This document shows, one piece after another, positions 13,038-32,140 of a DNA stretch of 64,000 nt. Each line of letters begins with the position of its first letter. Position 1 is the first letter of the stretch. The notes beneath the pieces were generated by a model. That model saw nothing but the letters and a program-made list of their open reading frames with translations, was not told where the DNA came from and searched no databases. The position numbers and the translations under genes were made by a program. Origin of the DNA: Escherichia phage APCEc01. The DNA is taken from the sequence record NC_029091.1. One strand, given 5' to 3'.

Positions 13038-13080
13038 GTTTACATGCTGATAGGACTATGTTATAGTAGTCCTATCAAAA
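13038..13080 (+). promoter_or_regulatory. early promoter with stem-loop, repeat family A
   Basis: GTTTACA at 13038-13044, TATAGT at 13062-13067, palindrome ATAGGACTAT...ATAGTAGTCCTAT spanning the -10. Confidence 0.6.
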
Positions 13081-13104
13081 CAAATGAGTAAATGGAGAAA
13101 TAAA

Positions 13105-13290
13105 ATGAAACGCGCTGAACTGATTCGTAATGTTGCTGTAGTAATTGCTTCAATGGCTTTTAGTTTTTCGATGTTTGTAGGATTCATTTGCGGACTACTG
13201 ACAACAACTGAAAATTCTATCTCATTGGTAGTAGCATTTCTAATCGGTTTAATCGCTATCGTTATGGATAAAATTGCAAAAGGTGAGTAA
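13105..13290 (+). CDS. small hydrophobic membrane protein
   Basis: 61-aa product from ATG after GGAG; single hydrophobic segment. Confidence 0.5.
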   Translation: MKRAELIRNVAVVIASMAFSFSMFVGFICGLLTTTENSISLVVAFLIGLIAIVMDKIAKGE

Positions 13291-13291
13291 A

Positions 13292-13654
13292 ATGAAATAT
13301 CACGTATATGCGGATTTTGAAGCAAATCCTTCTAAAGACCCTGATTGTCGTTTGATACGCAAACCATTTGATTCAGCAGCTCAAGCATGGACTTGGATTA
13401 AATCTAAATCGCCTGGTTATATGTTCTTTGAAGTAGTCGATGACAATGGTACACTGCATCCAGAACCTACAGAAACTATTAATTTCCTTCTGTTTGCTGG
13501 TTACGACTGTTATCCTCTTGGTGGTATTGATGATCTTGTTGCTACAGGAAAAACTGTTGAGGCTCTTCGCGAAATTTATAAAAACGCAGAAGAAAATTTT
13601 GACTGGTACCAGATTGTCAGTGCACATACTTTTGAAGTGGTGGAACACTCATGA
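13292..13654 (+). CDS. hypothetical protein
   Basis: 120-aa product from ATG after GGTGAG RBS; no recognisable family. Confidence 0.55.
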   Translation: MKYHVYADFEANPSKDPDCRLIRKPFDSAAQAWTWIKSKSPGYMFFEVVDDNGTLHPEPTETINFLLFAGYDCYPLGGIDDLVATGKTVEALREIYKNAEENFDWYQIVSAHTFEVVEHS

Positions 13655-13941
13655 TTCTTTACGCTAAAGTAAAATCTGTCGAGAACGGATATGAAAGCGA
13701 TCAACGTGCAGCTAAAGCACTAGTCGATGACTATGGTATTTTGACTAATTTTGAAGTTGAAAAGGTTTATATCGACCGTTCATCTTCGCAAGTTAAATTA
13801 CTCTGTGAAGATGATAAATTTAACACAGTTAACTTTGATTTCTTTATTGAAACAGAAAAAGGCCCTCTTGAATATGATATTTTCAAGAATCCTTTGAAAT
13901 TACGTTGCATTGAATATAATTACATTAATATGGTACGGTGA
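13651..13941 (+). CDS. hypothetical protein
   Basis: 96-aa ORF, start overlaps upstream stop. Confidence 0.5.
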   Translation: MILYAKVKSVENGYESDQRAAKALVDDYGILTNFEVEKVYIDRSSSQVKLLCEDDKFNTVNFDFFIETEKGPLEYDIFKNPLKLRCIEYNYINMVR

Positions 13942-13945
13942 GTAA

Positions 13946-14461
13946 ATGAATATTTGTTTAGGCAGTACAATTCCTAAGGGTTACGTAATTGATGTCACTA
14001 CTTGGGAAAATGACGGCGACAACTATAAAACTAAAACGTTGTTTGGTGTAGAAGAGCATGAGCTCCAACAGTTTAAATATCTCTTGAAGAAATTTAAGAG
14101 TCGTCATTCCAGCACTAAAGCTGAACGTTACTGTGGTAATACACCATTCAGTGATTGCTCGCTTTTAATCTATGAATACTTGGTTGAAGGACTGTTCTCA
14201 GACCAGCTTTATCCAGAATTCATTAAAAAGGTCTTTGGTATTGAAGTCGACCTTGGTAATAAATCTGAAGAAGACGAATCGCGTGTATTTGACCTGTTCC
14301 ATGAGAATGGATATTTAGTATCAGAAGGTCTCATTGATATTCTTGGCCATGCTTCTGAATATTATGATTATGATTTCTTGCGTGTAGTTGAATGTGTTGA
14401 ATTTGCTTATATTGAAGAAGAAATCGTTTTGCCGACTGTTAAAATGATTGATTTGCTTTAA
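13946..14461 (+). CDS. hypothetical protein
   Basis: 171-aa ORF after GGTGAG RBS. Confidence 0.55.
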   Translation: MNICLGSTIPKGYVIDVTTWENDGDNYKTKTLFGVEEHELQQFKYLLKKFKSRHSSTKAERYCGNTPFSDCSLLIYEYLVEGLFSDQLYPEFIKKVFGIEVDLGNKSEEDESRVFDLFHENGYLVSEGLIDILGHASEYYDYDFLRVVECVEFAYIEEEIVLPTVKMIDLL

Positions 14462-14540
14462 GAATTATGTGTTATTATTAATTCATACCCTCTATTACCA
14501 AAGGTGCTCTAAAGTGCCTTTCATAATAGAAAGTTATTTA

Positions 14541-14614
14541 GGCCCTGTAGCTCAATGGTTAGCAGCAGTCCCCTCATAAGGGAAAGGTTACCAGTTCGAA
14601 TCTGGTCTGGGTCA
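14541..14614 (+). tRNA. tRNA with CAT anticodon (Met, or Ile if C34 is modified)
   Basis: Cloverleaf: acceptor GGCCCTG/CTGGGTC, T-arm ACCAG-TTCGAAT-CTGGT, anticodon loop CTCATAA; no encoded CCA. Confidence 0.75.
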
Positions 14615-14620
14615 TATATT

Positions 14621-14697
14621 CGAGGCATAGCTCAATTGTATAGAGCAACGGACTTCTAATCCGTAGGTTGAAGGTTAGAATCCTTCTGTCTCGACCA
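14621..14697 (+). tRNA. tRNA-Arg (TCT anticodon)
   Basis: Cloverleaf: acceptor CGAGGCA/TGTCTCG, D-arm GCTC/GAGC, anticodon stem ACGGA/TCCGT with loop CTTCTAA, T-arm GAAGG-TTAGAAT-CCTTC, encoded CCA. Confidence 0.85.
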
Positions 14698-14715
14698 ACT
14701 TTAAGTGAGGAAAAT

Positions 14716-15060
14716 ATGAAAGGTAATATTTATCTGGTAGTTCATGATTTAACGTTTTATTTTAATGAACAGGATACAGTTATTTCCGACCGGTTGATTA
14801 ATTCGTTATATCAACACGCTGATTACGTTTATTTCCAAAATGAATTTGGCCATTGGAAGTTTCTTAAAAACCGTTCCGGGTTAACTAGTTTTGAATACTT
14901 TGACCGTAAAGACCTTTTAAACGAAATTCCATTACAACATCGGTTCCAGAAACGCGAATCACTATACTATTGTCGTCATATACCAAATGCTGAATGTGTT
15001 TATGAAGCGATTAATCTATGGCGTCGGCGTCGAGAGCAAATTGATGATATGCCAAAATAA
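14716..15060 (+). CDS. hypothetical protein
   Basis: 114-aa product from first ATG after RBS; the upstream ORF-track extension overlaps tRNA-Arg and is rejected. Confidence 0.5.
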   Translation: MKGNIYLVVHDLTFYFNEQDTVISDRLINSLYQHADYVYFQNEFGHWKFLKNRSGLTSFEYFDRKDLLNEIPLQHRFQKRESLYYCRHIPNAECVYEAINLWRRRREQIDDMPK

Positions 15061-31048: not shown

Positions 31049-31075
31049 ATACTAATATCTAACCAAGAGGTATAT

Positions 31076-31288
31076 ATGCAGCAATTAAACGAAAGACAAC
31101 TTCGTAATCTTACTGTAACCCAATTAGATGAAATCCGAAGAGAATTAGGACATTCTATTTCTCATTTAAACGAGGATATCCGTCAAACTGGTTCTAAAGC
31201 TGATTATACACGCAAGCGCAAGCTGGAAAAATACCTCACAGATGTTAAGGCCGTCCAAAGGCGAAAAATAAATACTGGCCAAAATTAA
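31076..31288 (+). CDS. hypothetical basic protein
   Basis: 70-aa ORF. Confidence 0.45.
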
Positions 31289-31300
31289 CAGGAGGCCTAT

Positions 31301-31603
31301 ATGGCCTTAAGAGCGATAGCTGTCATAGCGATGCTGGGGTTTTTTGCAGCAACAACTCCTATCGTTGGTACTGCACATATCGACCCATATTTTGATAACT
31401 TTATGGAATCAGGGATTAAAAACGTATATACTTTGTTTGAAATTCAAAATGTCGAGAATTCTGAAAAATTCTATAAGTATATGGCAAAGCATTACAAAAA
31501 TAGCCCCTGTGATGATGCATTTGAATGTCATGAACAAGGCATAAAAACTGCCAGACAATTTGCCGAGTTCATGAAAATAAAATTAGAGCCTACATCTATC
31601 TAA
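31301..31603 (+). CDS. rI: lysis inhibition regulator rI
   Basis: 100 aa, N-terminal membrane anchor, ...DPYFDNFMESGIKNVYTLFE...CDDAFEC..., close to T4 RI. Confidence 0.88.
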   Translation: MALRAIAVIAMLGFFAATTPIVGTAHIDPYFDNFMESGIKNVYTLFEIQNVENSEKFYKYMAKHYKNSPCDDAFECHEQGIKTARQFAEFMKIKLEPTSI

Positions 31604-31609
31604 TTTACT

Positions 31610-31637
31610 AGCCCCTTCCGAAAGGTTGGGGCTTTTT
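31610..31637 (+). terminator. intrinsic terminator, near-copy of the 15372 element
   Basis: TAGCCCCTTCCGAAAGGTTGGGGCTTTTT. Confidence 0.7.
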
Positions 31638-31648
31638 GGCATCTATCA

Positions 31649-31700
31649 GTTTACTTCTCCTCAGGTTGTGTTATAGTAAACCTTACTTACTAGAGGAGAA
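31649..31700 (+). promoter_or_regulatory. early promoter with stem-loop
   Basis: GTTTACT at 31649-31655, TATAGT at 31672-31677, inverted repeat TTCTCCTC/GAGGAGAA. Confidence 0.55.
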
Positions 31701-31704
31701 CGTT

Positions 31705-31884
31705 ATGTCACGTAAAGAAAAAATTTCTAAGTTAATGTTTTTGATTGAAGAGTACGCTAATGCGGTATCTGATTGGGAAAATGCTCATGGTTGCGAAGAT
31801 GGAGACATCGACATTAACAGAGCTATGAAAAAGATGGCTGAAGCCCACACCGAATTGCAAATGTATGTTAACGAGATTATGTGA
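31705..31884 (+). CDS. hypothetical small protein
   Basis: 59-aa product from ATG after AGAGGAGAA. Confidence 0.45.
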   Translation: MSRKEKISKLMFLIEEYANAVSDWENAHGCEDGDIDINRAMKKMAEAHTELQMYVNEIM

Positions 31885-31891
31885 GGATATT

Positions 31892-32098
31892 ATGCTTTAC
31901 GATTATACTGGAAAATCTGAAGACGGTGTACTTGAACTTTTACCTGAAAGCGCTGAAGATGATGATACGGTGGTGATGTTTTGTAAAAATGGCCCTGGGG
32001 ATAAGGGATGGATTTATCTTCGTCAAGAAAATGACTTAATTGTTTTGGGCCCAAAACAAGTTGAAGAACTTTATCAACATTTAAAACACAATCGGTAG
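31892..32098 (+). CDS. hypothetical acidic protein
   Basis: 68-aa product. Confidence 0.45.
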   Translation: MLYDYTGKSEDGVLELLPESAEDDDTVVMFCKNGPGDKGWIYLRQENDLIVLGPKQVEELYQHLKHNR

Positions 32099-32140
32099 TT
32101 TACATCTTGGTAGGACTATGTTATAGTAGTCCTATCAAAA
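32098..32140 (+). promoter_or_regulatory. early promoter with stem-loop, repeat family A
   Basis: GTTTACA at 32098-32104, TATAGT at 32122-32127, palindrome TAGGACTAT...ATAGTAGTCCTAT. Confidence 0.6.

What the first reader, a model, noticed from the sequence alone, without database searches (positions are those of the whole stretch)
13038..32140. Four near-identical copies of one promoter cassette
The segment (T)AGGACTATGTTATAGTAGTCCTAT(C/T)AAAACA occurs at about 13049-13083, 19859-19893, 21423-21455 and 32109-32143, with only 1-2 differences. Separately, TTTCACAAAACAGTTTACA is shared by 12670-12689 and 21131-21149. Such long identical intergenic repeats in a compact phage genome are substrates for homologous recombination and could drive deletion, duplication or inversion of the intervening blocks.
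Basis: seen in the sequence. Interest (0 to 1): 0.45.

Follow-up and report, generated by a model that had tools for sequence, protein, structure and literature searches.

The report
Repeated early promoter hairpin cassettes (PeSLs)
Four near-identical 60-nt early-promoter-plus-hairpin cassettes in an RB69-like T4-type phage belong to the already described "PeSL" class, and sequenced relatives show that crossovers between them have deleted the 6.8 to 8.4 kb of genes lying in between.

Summary
The 24-nt core AGGACTATGTTATAGTAGTCCTAT occurs four times on the + strand (three exact copies, one with 1 mismatch; 0 expected by chance).

The window is a Mosigvirus (RB69-like T4-type phage). Each copy fills a 57-70 nt gap between small early genes. 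Each is a T4-type sigma-70 early promoter (TTTACA/TGTACA, 17 nt, TGnTATAGT) whose -10 sits in the loop of an 11-13 bp hairpin.

This matches the published promoter-early stem-loop (PeSL) class of Arbiol 2010 and Comeau 2014.

- Phage NRG-P0074 joins copy 1 to copy 2 inside the cassette and lacks the 6.8 kb between them anywhere in its genome.
- O157 typing phages 13 and 6 join copy 1 to copy 3.
- A 66-aa ORF flanked by two cassettes is present or absent among relatives. In Tequatrovirus it sits at another locus.

Limits:
- Exact identity between copies is only 20-34 nt.
- All copies are direct, so inversion is not expected.
- No duplication junction was found.
- Breakpoints are not enriched in cassettes beyond their being intergenic.
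- The role of the hairpin remains inferred.

This is a new member of a known kind, of modest interest.

The parts
13039..13107 (+). Copy 1 (c1): -35 TTTACA 13039-13044; -10 TATAGT 13062-13067 with TG at 13059-13060; hairpin arms 13048-13059 / 13066-13077, loop 13060-13065; predicted start at the A of ATCAA, about 13074; ATG 13105 of the 61-aa tRNA.4 homologue. The upstream ipI stop codon ends at 13034.
   Evidence: (RNA fold -17.7 kcal/mol, z -7.05)
19849..19908 (+). Copy 2 (c2): -35 19849-19854; -10 19872-19877; hairpin arms 19859-19869 / 19876-19886. Its single A->G difference (AGGGCTA) gives a G.U pair. ATG 19906 of a 79-aa ORF (RB69ORF135c homologue).
   Evidence: (-16.0 kcal/mol, z -6.0; minus strand only -8.9)
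21413..21472 (+). Copy 3 (c3): -35 TGTACA 21413-21418; -10 21436-21441; hairpin arms 21422-21433 / 21440-21451; ATG 21470 of a 101-aa membrane ORF (RB69ORF133c homologue).
   Evidence: (-15.5 kcal/mol, z -5.5)
32099..32158 (+). Copy 4 (c4): -35 32099-32104; -10 32122-32127; hairpin arms 32107-32119 / 32126-32138; ATG 32156 of a 36-aa ORF (phrog_3515).
   Evidence: (-18.0 kcal/mol, z -5.9)
12671..12749 (+). ipI early promoter carrying the second repeat TTTCACAAAACAGTTTACA (A-rich upstream part plus -35); -10 TACTAT 12707-12712; its own, different stem GATGATGG/CTATCATC around the -10; ATG 12747.
   Evidence: z -2.2
21131..21213 (+). Promoter of the 66-aa ORF, with the same 19-nt TTTCACAAAACAGTTTACA; a different stem AGGTCTGTAG/CTATAGACCT (one G.U) around -10 TACTAT; ATG 21211.
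   Evidence: z -3.5
21150..21411 (+). Insertion/deletion module lying between the two cassettes: the 3' part of the 21131 cassette plus the 66-aa ORF (21211-21411). It is absent from RB69, phiE142, SQ17, AV115, LF82-1 and NRG-P0074, which carry one hybrid cassette at this site. It is replaced by a larger, unrelated ORF in ECO111 5-P. It is present at another locus in Tequatrovirus.
13087..19846 (+). The 6.8-kb block between copies 1 and 2 (tRNA.4 to RB69ORF136c homologues, including tRNA genes at 14541-14614 and 14621-14694). It is missing from the whole genome of phage NRG-P0074, and the junction lies inside the cassette.

Best explanation
The four repeats are one sequence sub-family of T4-type early promoters of the kind published as PeSLs (promoter-early stem-loops). 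Each copy fills the gap between two small early genes. Host sigma-70 RNA polymerase would start at the conserved ATCAA about 7 nt after the -10 (inferred), so a cassette's own transcript lacks the left arm of the hairpin. Only RNA reading through from upstream can form the 11-13 bp hairpin. The most likely role of the hairpin is to act on that read-through RNA, by attenuating it, processing it or stabilising its 3' end, so that each small gene depends on its own promoter (inferred, not shown here). Because the same roughly 45-60 nt is present at several places in direct orientation, the cassettes also act as short portable homologies. Crossovers inside them delete the intervening non-essential genes; this is shown by natural genomes. 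They also allow single ORFs bounded by cassettes to be gained, lost or moved between loci and genera; this is shown by comparison of relatives.
For: Promoter:
- -35/17 nt/-10 with the TG extension scores 9-10 of 12 in the consensus scan.
- The cassette starts 0-5 nt after the upstream stop codon and ends at an SD plus ATG.

Hairpin:
- All four copies fold at -15.5 to -18 kcal/mol, z -5.5 to -7.
- Across 25 early-promoter cassettes in the window the mean z is -2.3, and 14 of 25 are below -2.
- Other cassettes have stems of different sequence: GAGAGCA/TGCTCTC, AGGTCTAT/ATAGACCT, AGGAAGATA/TATCTTCCT.
- The + strand is more stable than the - strand in all four copies. Copy 2's only substitution is a G.U pair.
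- A paralogue in NRG-P0074 carries the full compensatory pair AGGGCTA/TAGCCCT.

Known class:
- The papers describe a sigma-70 promoter plus stem-loop, most often overlapping the -10 or lying between -35 and -10. G-T pairs occur in the stems. The T4/PST consensus is TTTACW-N17-TAYWAT, and the elements are associated with indels.

Recombination:
- NRG-P0074 joins window 7802-13086 to 19847-21149 with a 50-nt overlap, which is the cassette. The upstream half is copy-1 type and the downstream half copy-2 type.
- The block is absent from all 168 kb of that genome.
- Typing phage 13 has ipI, then one cassette, then ORF133c. Typing phage 6 has ipI, cassette, an extra internal-protein gene, cassette, ORF133c.
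- The 21149|21412 junction recurs in six relatives, which carry a hybrid cassette.
- The 66-aa ORF module is about 97% identical in Tequatrovirus at a different locus.
- Copy number is 6-10 per Mosigvirus genome.
Against: - No transcript data: the start site and any effect of the hairpin are inferred.
- The stems are not followed by a T-run and are not called as intrinsic terminators. The published 'terminator' role was tested only on a G/C-rich RB49 element, so it may not apply here.
- Exact homology is only 20-34 nt.
- The four copies sit at the same four loci in all eight relatives examined closely, so rearrangement is rare.
- Breakpoints are enriched in cassettes relative to all positions: 14 of 56 against 4.7% of bases. 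Among non-coding breakpoints they are not: 13 of 25 against 40% expected, p 0.16.
- A junction created by mis-assembly across the repeat would look the same. The typing phage 13 record is a 'partial genome' that appears to be concatenated contigs.
Confidence: 0.85

Rival explanations
1. The palindrome is a DNA operator. A dimeric phage or host protein binds the 11-bp inverted repeat over the -10 and switches these promoters off. This could contribute to the still unexplained shut-off of T4 early promoters.
For: The inverted repeat TGATAGGACTA...TAGTCCTATCA is perfect and centred on the -10. The core is about 97% conserved between Mosigvirus and Tequatrovirus, while the 24-kb query that includes flanking genes matches Tequatrovirus genomes at only about 80%. 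The mechanism of early-promoter shut-off is stated to be incompletely understood.
Against: Other early promoters in the window have stems of unrelated sequence and in different registers relative to the -10, which fits a structure rather than a recognition sequence. Variation is G.T-biased, and the + strand folds better than the - strand; a double-stranded DNA operator should be symmetric. No candidate binding protein was identified.
Confidence: 0.06
2. The hairpin works at the DNA level on promoter melting. Extrusion of the non-template strand as a hairpin or cruciform presents -10 bases in a loop and tunes promoter strength with supercoiling.
For: The loop GTTATA contains the first four bases of the -10 (T-12 to A-9) in all four copies. 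G.T-tolerant variation is also compatible with a non-template DNA-strand hairpin.
Against: In other cassettes the -10 lies at varying positions: in the loop, in the right arm, or well inside a long hairpin that reaches the SD. No fixed geometry relative to RNA polymerase is conserved. A cruciform also needs the template-strand hairpin, which is weakened by C.A mismatches (minus strand -8.9 for copy 2).
Confidence: 0.05
3. The similarity is only convergent selection for a strong promoter, and the apparent deletions in relatives are assembly artefacts. The repeats then have no role in rearrangement.
For: T4 early promoters share an extended consensus beyond -35 and -10. The typing phage 13 record is a partial genome that appears to be concatenated contigs. 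Breakpoints are not enriched in cassettes beyond their being intergenic.
Against: The four copies share the stem sequence itself, which is free to differ in other promoters. That indicates common descent or conversion. Three records from two sources show cassette-to-cassette junctions, and NRG-P0074 lacks the block genome-wide. Typing phage 6, listed as complete, is 160,570 bp against 168,733 bp for typing phage 3 of the same species, a difference that matches an 8-kb loss. The 21149|21412 indel carries a hybrid cassette in six genomes.
Confidence: 0.04

Closest known systems
PeSLs, promoter-early stem-loops of T4-type phages (Arbiol et al. 2010, PMC2839356; Comeau et al. 2014, PMC4122927)
   Same: Shared features: a sigma-70-like early promoter plus a stem-loop overlapping the -10 or lying between -35 and -10; G-T pairs in the stems; the upstream stop codon and the downstream SD/ATG at the two ends; many copies in hyperplastic regions next to small ORFs of unknown function; indels and replacements between close relatives ending in them. 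The T4/PST consensus TTTACW-N17-TAYWAT fits these copies.
   Different: Those papers analysed RB49/phi1, T4/PST and KVP40/nt-1, not RB69-like phages. The RB49 stems are G-run/C-run, and one was shown to terminate transcription. The stems here are mixed-sequence with no T-run, so terminator activity is unproven. Mini-circles were not testable here. The papers documented single-ORF exchanges, whereas 6.8-8.4 kb deletions between non-adjacent copies are seen here.
Bacteriophage T4 early promoters (reviewed by Hinton 2010, PMC2988021)
   Same: Very strong UP/-35/TGn/-10 promoters used by unmodified host RNA polymerase, with extra conserved positions beyond the hexamers. The -35 (G)TTTACA and the TG extension are present here.
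   Different: The passages of the review that I retrieved do not mention an inverted repeat around the -10. The upstream region of these four copies lies in the coding sequence and is only slightly AT-rich (68% against 63%).
Internal-protein (IP) locus polymorphism of T-even phages (Repoila et al. 1994, as cited in Comeau 2014)
   Same: Copy 1 lies directly after ipI. Relatives carry different or additional IP genes between the conserved N-terminal capsid-targeting sequence and the cassette (breakpoints 12769 and 13038-13094).
   Different: That work concerned the IP genes only. I know it only through the citation and did not read the paper.
RBS-sequestering hairpins of T4 genes e, soc, 49 and I-TevI (Uzan and Miller 2010, PMC3014915)
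   Same: The principle is the same: a promoter placed inside a hairpin gives a transcript without the inhibitory arm, while read-through RNA forms the hairpin. A second class of cassettes in this window (e.g. 27997-28053 before regB) pairs the spacer with the SD.
   Different: In the known cases the internal promoter is late or middle. In the four copies of the finding, the hairpin ends near +4 and does not reach the SD.
Hairpin promoters of coliphage N4 virion RNA polymerase (from my own knowledge, not checked here)
   Same: A promoter whose recognition involves a DNA hairpin.
   Different: The N4 elements are 5-7 bp stems with 3-nt loops, read by a phage-encoded polymerase on extruded single-stranded DNA. 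The elements here have full sigma-70 -35/-10 boxes, and stem register varies between cassettes.

Membership tests
PeSL (promoter-early stem-loop) | Sigma-70-type early promoter with about 17-nt spacing | tested here: met
   TTTACA/TGTACA, 17 nt, TATAGT with TG; 9-10 of 12 consensus matches for all four copies.
PeSL (promoter-early stem-loop) | Sequence able to form a stable stem-loop within or overlapping the promoter | tested here: met
   11-13 bp stems, -15.5 to -18 kcal/mol, z -5.5 to -7.05, with the -10 in the loop and right arm. The class-wide signal is mean z -2.3 over 25 cassettes.
PeSL (promoter-early stem-loop) | Intergenic position bounded by the upstream stop codon and by the downstream SD and start codon | tested here: met
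   The stop codon ends 0-5 nt before the -35. Intergenic length is 57-70 nt. SD plus ATG follow.
PeSL (promoter-early stem-loop) | AT-rich tract upstream of the -35 | tested here: inconclusive
   68% A+T in the 25 nt upstream against 62.7% for the window. A-runs are present in copies 2, 3 and 4 but not clearly in copy 1.
PeSL (promoter-early stem-loop) | Many copies, concentrated in hyperplastic regions next to small ORFs of unknown function | tested here: met
   25 cassettes in the window. The downstream ORFs of 36-101 aa all fall in PHROG families of unknown function. There are 6-10 copies of this sub-family per Mosigvirus genome.
PeSL (promoter-early stem-loop) | Indels or replacements between close relatives that end in the elements (recombination at PeSLs) | tested here: met
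   c1 x c2 junction in NRG-P0074; c1 x c3 in typing phages 13 and 6; 21149|21412 hybrid cassette in six genomes. Caveat: there is no enrichment beyond being intergenic.
PeSL (promoter-early stem-loop) | The stem-loop terminates or attenuates upstream transcription | not testable with these tools
   No T-run follows the stems and none is called as an intrinsic terminator. Published evidence is for one RB49 element only.
PeSL (promoter-early stem-loop) | Formation of excised mini-circles | not testable with these tools
   This needs PCR or long reads on phage DNA (described).
T4-type early promoter | Activity immediately after infection with unmodified host polymerase; transcription start about 7 nt after the -10 | not testable with these tools
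   Only the sequence match is available. The conserved ATCAA at the expected start position is seen in most cassettes.
Rfam RNA families | Match to any curated RNA family at the gathering score | tested here: not met
   Only the two tRNAs at 14541-14694 match; nothing matches at the cassettes.

The most novel reading that the evidence does not exclude
The hairpin may be selected as a single-stranded sense-strand structure. This fits the G.U-tolerant and compensatory changes and the + strand always folding better than the - strand. If so, it could be a general insulator of T4-type early transcription units. Read-through RNA would fold and be attenuated, processed or translationally silenced; a second cassette class clearly sequesters the SD. 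Promoter-initiated RNA would stay open. Every small early gene would then be a self-contained, relocatable unit. A more speculative version is that the same palindromes act at the DNA level in the unexplained shut-off of early promoters.
Probability: 0.15. Interest if true: 0.55.

Novelty: new member of a known kind. Interest (0 to 1): 0.3.

Why it matters
It gives a clean, checkable natural example of what the PeSL papers proposed, in a T4-type genus they did not analyse. About 45-60 nt regulatory cassettes sharing only 20-34 nt of exact homology act as crossover points. These crossovers remove kilobase blocks, including the tRNA genes, and carry single small genes between loci and between genera that are otherwise about 80% identical. 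For phage engineering and therapy it marks predictable deletion hot spots and natural insertion slots. It also flags a risk for genome assembly and annotation of these phages. It does not reveal a new kind of element.

Tried and rejected
- Fixed-column covariation test: abandoned. The stems of different cassettes lie in different registers relative to the -10 (sum of paired indices +1 for the four copies, -6 for the 21144 cassette), so no common alignment of pairs exists.
- Intrinsic terminator reading: none of the four hairpins has a T-run, and none is called by the scan.
- Known RNA family: nothing in Rfam except the two tRNAs.
- Breakpoint enrichment: significant against all positions but not against non-coding positions. 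I do not use it as evidence for a special recombination activity.
- Copy 2 to copy 3 deletion junction: 0 of 172 records.
- Copy 2 to copy 1 duplication junction: 0 of 271 records.
- Junctions involving copy 4 were not searched, because they would remove the lysozyme gene.
- Concerted evolution: not supported. Copy 2's G variant is conserved at the same locus in all eight relatives.
- Typing phage 13 second locus (L010): the ipI 3' end, a cassette and ORF135c sit next to unrelated genes in a 'partial genome'. I judged this to be a concatenated contig, possibly a variant in the stock, and did not count it as independent evidence.
- Relocation of the 6.8-kb block in NRG-P0074: excluded by BLAST of the block against the whole genome, fetched in five pieces.
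Full report
**1. The observation.**
- The 24-nt core AGGACTATGTTATAGTAGTCCTAT is at 13052, 21426 and 32112 (exact) and at 19862 (one A->G). All four are on the + strand, and no match occurred in 100 shuffles.
- TTTCACAAAACAGTTTACA is exact at 12671 and 21131.
- In register, the four copies share longest exact runs of 20-34 nt and 47-52 of 64 positions from the -35 to the ribosome-binding site.

**2. Where this is.**
- The window is 99.6% identical over 12000-22000 to Escherichia phage vB_EcoM_SCS57. This is a Mosigvirus, that is, an RB69-like T4-type phage.
- Window coordinate = SCS57 coordinate minus 96000.
- The region runs from genes 53/4/2/3/1/57A/57B and ipI through the tRNA genes, e, denV, regB, tk and rI to the nrdC cluster. 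It is transcribed on the + strand.
- This corresponds to one of the variable ('hyperplastic') regions of T4-type genomes.

**3. Anatomy.**
- Each copy fills a 57-70 nt gap. The upstream stop codon ends 0-5 nt before the -35. The cassette ends with an SD and the ATG of a small ORF of 61, 79, 101 or 36 aa.
- All four ORFs belong to PHROG families of unknown function.
- The hexamers are TTTACA (TGTACA in copy 3), 17 nt, TATAGT preceded by TG. These sites score 9-10 of 12 in the consensus scan, which puts them among its better matches.
The -10 lies in the loop and right arm.
- As RNA the four copies fold at -15.5 to -18.0 kcal/mol, z -5.5 to -7.05.
- Most cassettes carry ATCAA about 7 nt after the -10, which is the expected start. 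A cassette's own transcript would therefore lack the left arm. This is an inference; no transcript data are available.

**4. It is one sub-family of a class.**
- I found 25 cassettes of this type in the window.
- Folding from the end of the -35 to the ATG gives mean z -2.3, with 14 of 25 below -2.
- The stems differ in sequence between cassettes. Examples are GAGAGCA/TGCTCTC at 17035, AGGTCTAT/ATAGACCT at 36271, AGGAAGATA/TATCTTCCT at 47248 and ATGTGGT/ACCACAT at 53240. They also differ in register relative to the -10.
- A second class pairs the -35/-10 spacer with the SD of the next gene. An example lies before regB at 27997, with a perfect 13-bp repeat TCTCCTCTAGTTG/CAACTAGAGGAGA.
- The + strand folds better than the - strand in all four copies and in 17 of 25 cassettes.
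- Copy 2's only difference makes a G.U pair. A paralogue in phage NRG-P0074 has the double change AGGGCTA/TAGCCCT.
- Pairing, rather than sequence, therefore seems to be what is kept, on the sense strand.
- None of the four hairpins has a T-run or is called as an intrinsic terminator. Rfam finds only the two tRNAs.

**5. Literature.**
- Arbiol et al. 2010 and Comeau et al. 2014 describe this composite in RB49/phi1, T4/PST and KVP40/nt-1 as PeSLs (promoter-early stem-loops).
- Their description: a sigma-70-like early promoter plus a stem-loop, most often between -35 and -10 or overlapping the -10, with G-T pairs.
- For T4/PST the consensus is TTTACW-N17-TAYWAT.
- The elements are concentrated in hyperplastic regions next to ORFans and are associated with indels.
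- The authors propose, and show by PCR for RB49/phi1, that PeSLs recombine and excise mini-circles.
- Hinton 2010 describes T4 early promoters as UP/-35/TGn/-10 promoters with additional conserved positions.

**6. Test of the recombination idea.**
- I aligned window 11000-36000 to seven relatives. I also built chimeric queries consisting of 250 nt upstream of one copy, the core, and 250 nt downstream of another.
- (a) Copy 1 to copy 2.
  - Phage NRG-P0074 (PQ480333) matches the whole 524-nt chimera in one piece at 98.1%.
  - Window 7802-13086 and 19847-21149 map to it with a 50-nt overlap, which is the cassette.
  - The upstream half is copy-1 type (tgctgatAGGACTA) and the downstream half is copy-2 type.
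  - BLAST of the 6.8-kb block against the whole genome, fetched in five pieces, finds only 34-76-nt matches.
  - The block is therefore deleted and has not moved. It runs from the tRNA.4 homologue to the ORF136c homologue and includes both tRNA genes.
- (b) Copy 1 to copy 3.
  - O157 typing phage 13 matches end to end: ipI, one cassette, ORF133c.
  - Typing phage 6 has ipI, a cassette, an extra internal-protein gene, a cassette, then ORF133c.
  - Typing phage 6 is 160,570 bp against 168,733 bp for typing phage 3 of the same species.
- (c) Copy 2 to copy 3 deletion: 0 of 172 records. Copy 2 to copy 1 duplication: 0 of 271 records.
- (d) All copies in the window, and all seven in NRG-P0074, are on one strand. 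Inversion is therefore not expected.

**7. A cassette-bounded mobile ORF.**
- The 66-aa ORF at 21211-21411 lies between the 21131 cassette and copy 3.
- RB69, phiE142, SQ17, AV115, LF82-1 and NRG-P0074 lack it. At this site they have one hybrid cassette, TTTCACAAAACTGTTTACA + caattat + AGGACTA..., with the join at the -35.
- ECO111 5-P has a larger, unrelated ORF in the same slot.
- The same ORF with both flanking cassettes is about 97% identical in Tequatrovirus phages, where it lies between nrdC.11 and nrdC.10, a different locus. Over the 24-kb query the Tequatrovirus genomes match at only about 80%.
- 120 records carry this ORF.
- Even SCS57 and the window differ in the spacer of copy 3, 'resident' against 'module' type. 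This implies more than one crossover point within the cassette.
- Relatives with extra internal-protein genes carry an extra copy of the cassette in front of each.
- The RB69 frd.3 promoter is a hybrid with only the right half of the repeat.

**8. Limits.**
- The four copies are at the same four loci in all eight relatives examined, so they are old and usually stable.
- Breakpoints fall in cassettes 14 times out of 56, against 4.7% of bases (p about 3e-7). Among non-coding breakpoints the figure is 13 of 25 against 40% expected (p 0.16). The statistics add nothing beyond 'whole-gene indels end between genes'; the evidence lies in the junction sequences.
- From my own knowledge, not checked here: T4 homologous recombination falls off sharply below about 50 bp. 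That fits rare events.
- A mis-assembly across the repeat would mimic a junction.
- The typing phage 13 record appears to be concatenated contigs, and I do not count its second locus.
- The function of the hairpin is inferred. The published terminator test used a different, G/C-rich stem.

**9. Verdict.**
- These are real repeats, correctly read as promoter cassettes.
- They are members of the known PeSL class in a genus where that class had not been described in the papers I read.
Inversion is not applicable, and no duplication was found.
- The mechanism of the hairpin remains open, with a sense-strand (RNA-level) role the most likely.

Noticed in passing
window 27997-28053 (before regB); also 24439-24495 (before denV), 31650-31705, 15977-16033, 46120-46177: A second class of early-promoter cassette. 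The left arm lies in the -35/-10 spacer and pairs with the Shine-Dalgarno sequence of the downstream gene (13 perfect pairs TCTCCTCTAGTTG/CAACTAGAGGAGA before regB). Only read-through RNA could form it, so translation would depend on the gene's own promoter. At regB the sequestered GGAG is also the RegB cleavage motif.
   Followed up: partly
window 21131-21472; L017 (NC_054922) 905-1254: The 66-aa ORF with its two flanking cassettes is about 97% identical between Mosigvirus and Tequatrovirus but lies at different loci (ORF134c/133c against nrdC.11/nrdC.10). This indicates recent transfer of a cassette-bounded module between genera.
   Followed up: yes
window 15371-15404, 15914-15947, 31609-31642: Three copies (76-97% identical) of one intrinsic terminator, TAGCCCCTTCCGAAAGGTYGGGGCTTTTTGGCAT. 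The copies at 15914 and 31609 are followed by an early promoter. Relatives L004 and L007 carry a 594-nt insertion at 31610-31638 flanked by this repeat.
   Followed up: partly
window 12747, 15445, 24155, 25240, 25580: A repeated 5' coding motif ATGAAAACATATnnnGAATTTAT (MKTYxEF...), which I read from my own knowledge as the capsid-targeting sequence of T4 internal proteins, at the start of five ORFs. Breakpoints against relatives fall just after it (12769, 25268), so internal-protein genes are swapped between this motif and the next cassette.
   Followed up: partly
window 17021-17082 and 47534-47595: Another pair of early-promoter cassettes, 89% identical over 62 nt, with stem GAGAGCA/TGCTCTC around TATAAT and 30.5 kb apart (D12). 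This is a further potential crossover pair and was not examined in relatives.
   Followed up: no
L004 (OR844765) 12672-13335, aligned to window 21126|21412: ECO111 5-P carries a roughly 200-aa ORF in the same intergenic slot that holds the 66-aa ORF in the window. By eye it looks like a homing-endonuclease type protein, but no family search was run.
   Followed up: no
L010 (KP869111) 5001-6858: In the 'partial genome' of O157 typing phage 13, a 1.9-kb piece (ipI 3' end, hybrid cassette, ORF135c ... copy 3, ORF133c 5' end) sits between unrelated genes, while the main locus has the copy-1/copy-3 junction. It looks like an alternative assembly path, possibly two deletion variants in one stock.
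   Followed up: partly
window 18709-18960: About 250 nt are present here but replaced by 11 nt in phiE142, ECO111 5-P and LF82-1. The right end coincides with a promoter-like site TTTACG-17-TATAAT at 18961 that lies inside annotated coding sequence.
   Followed up: no
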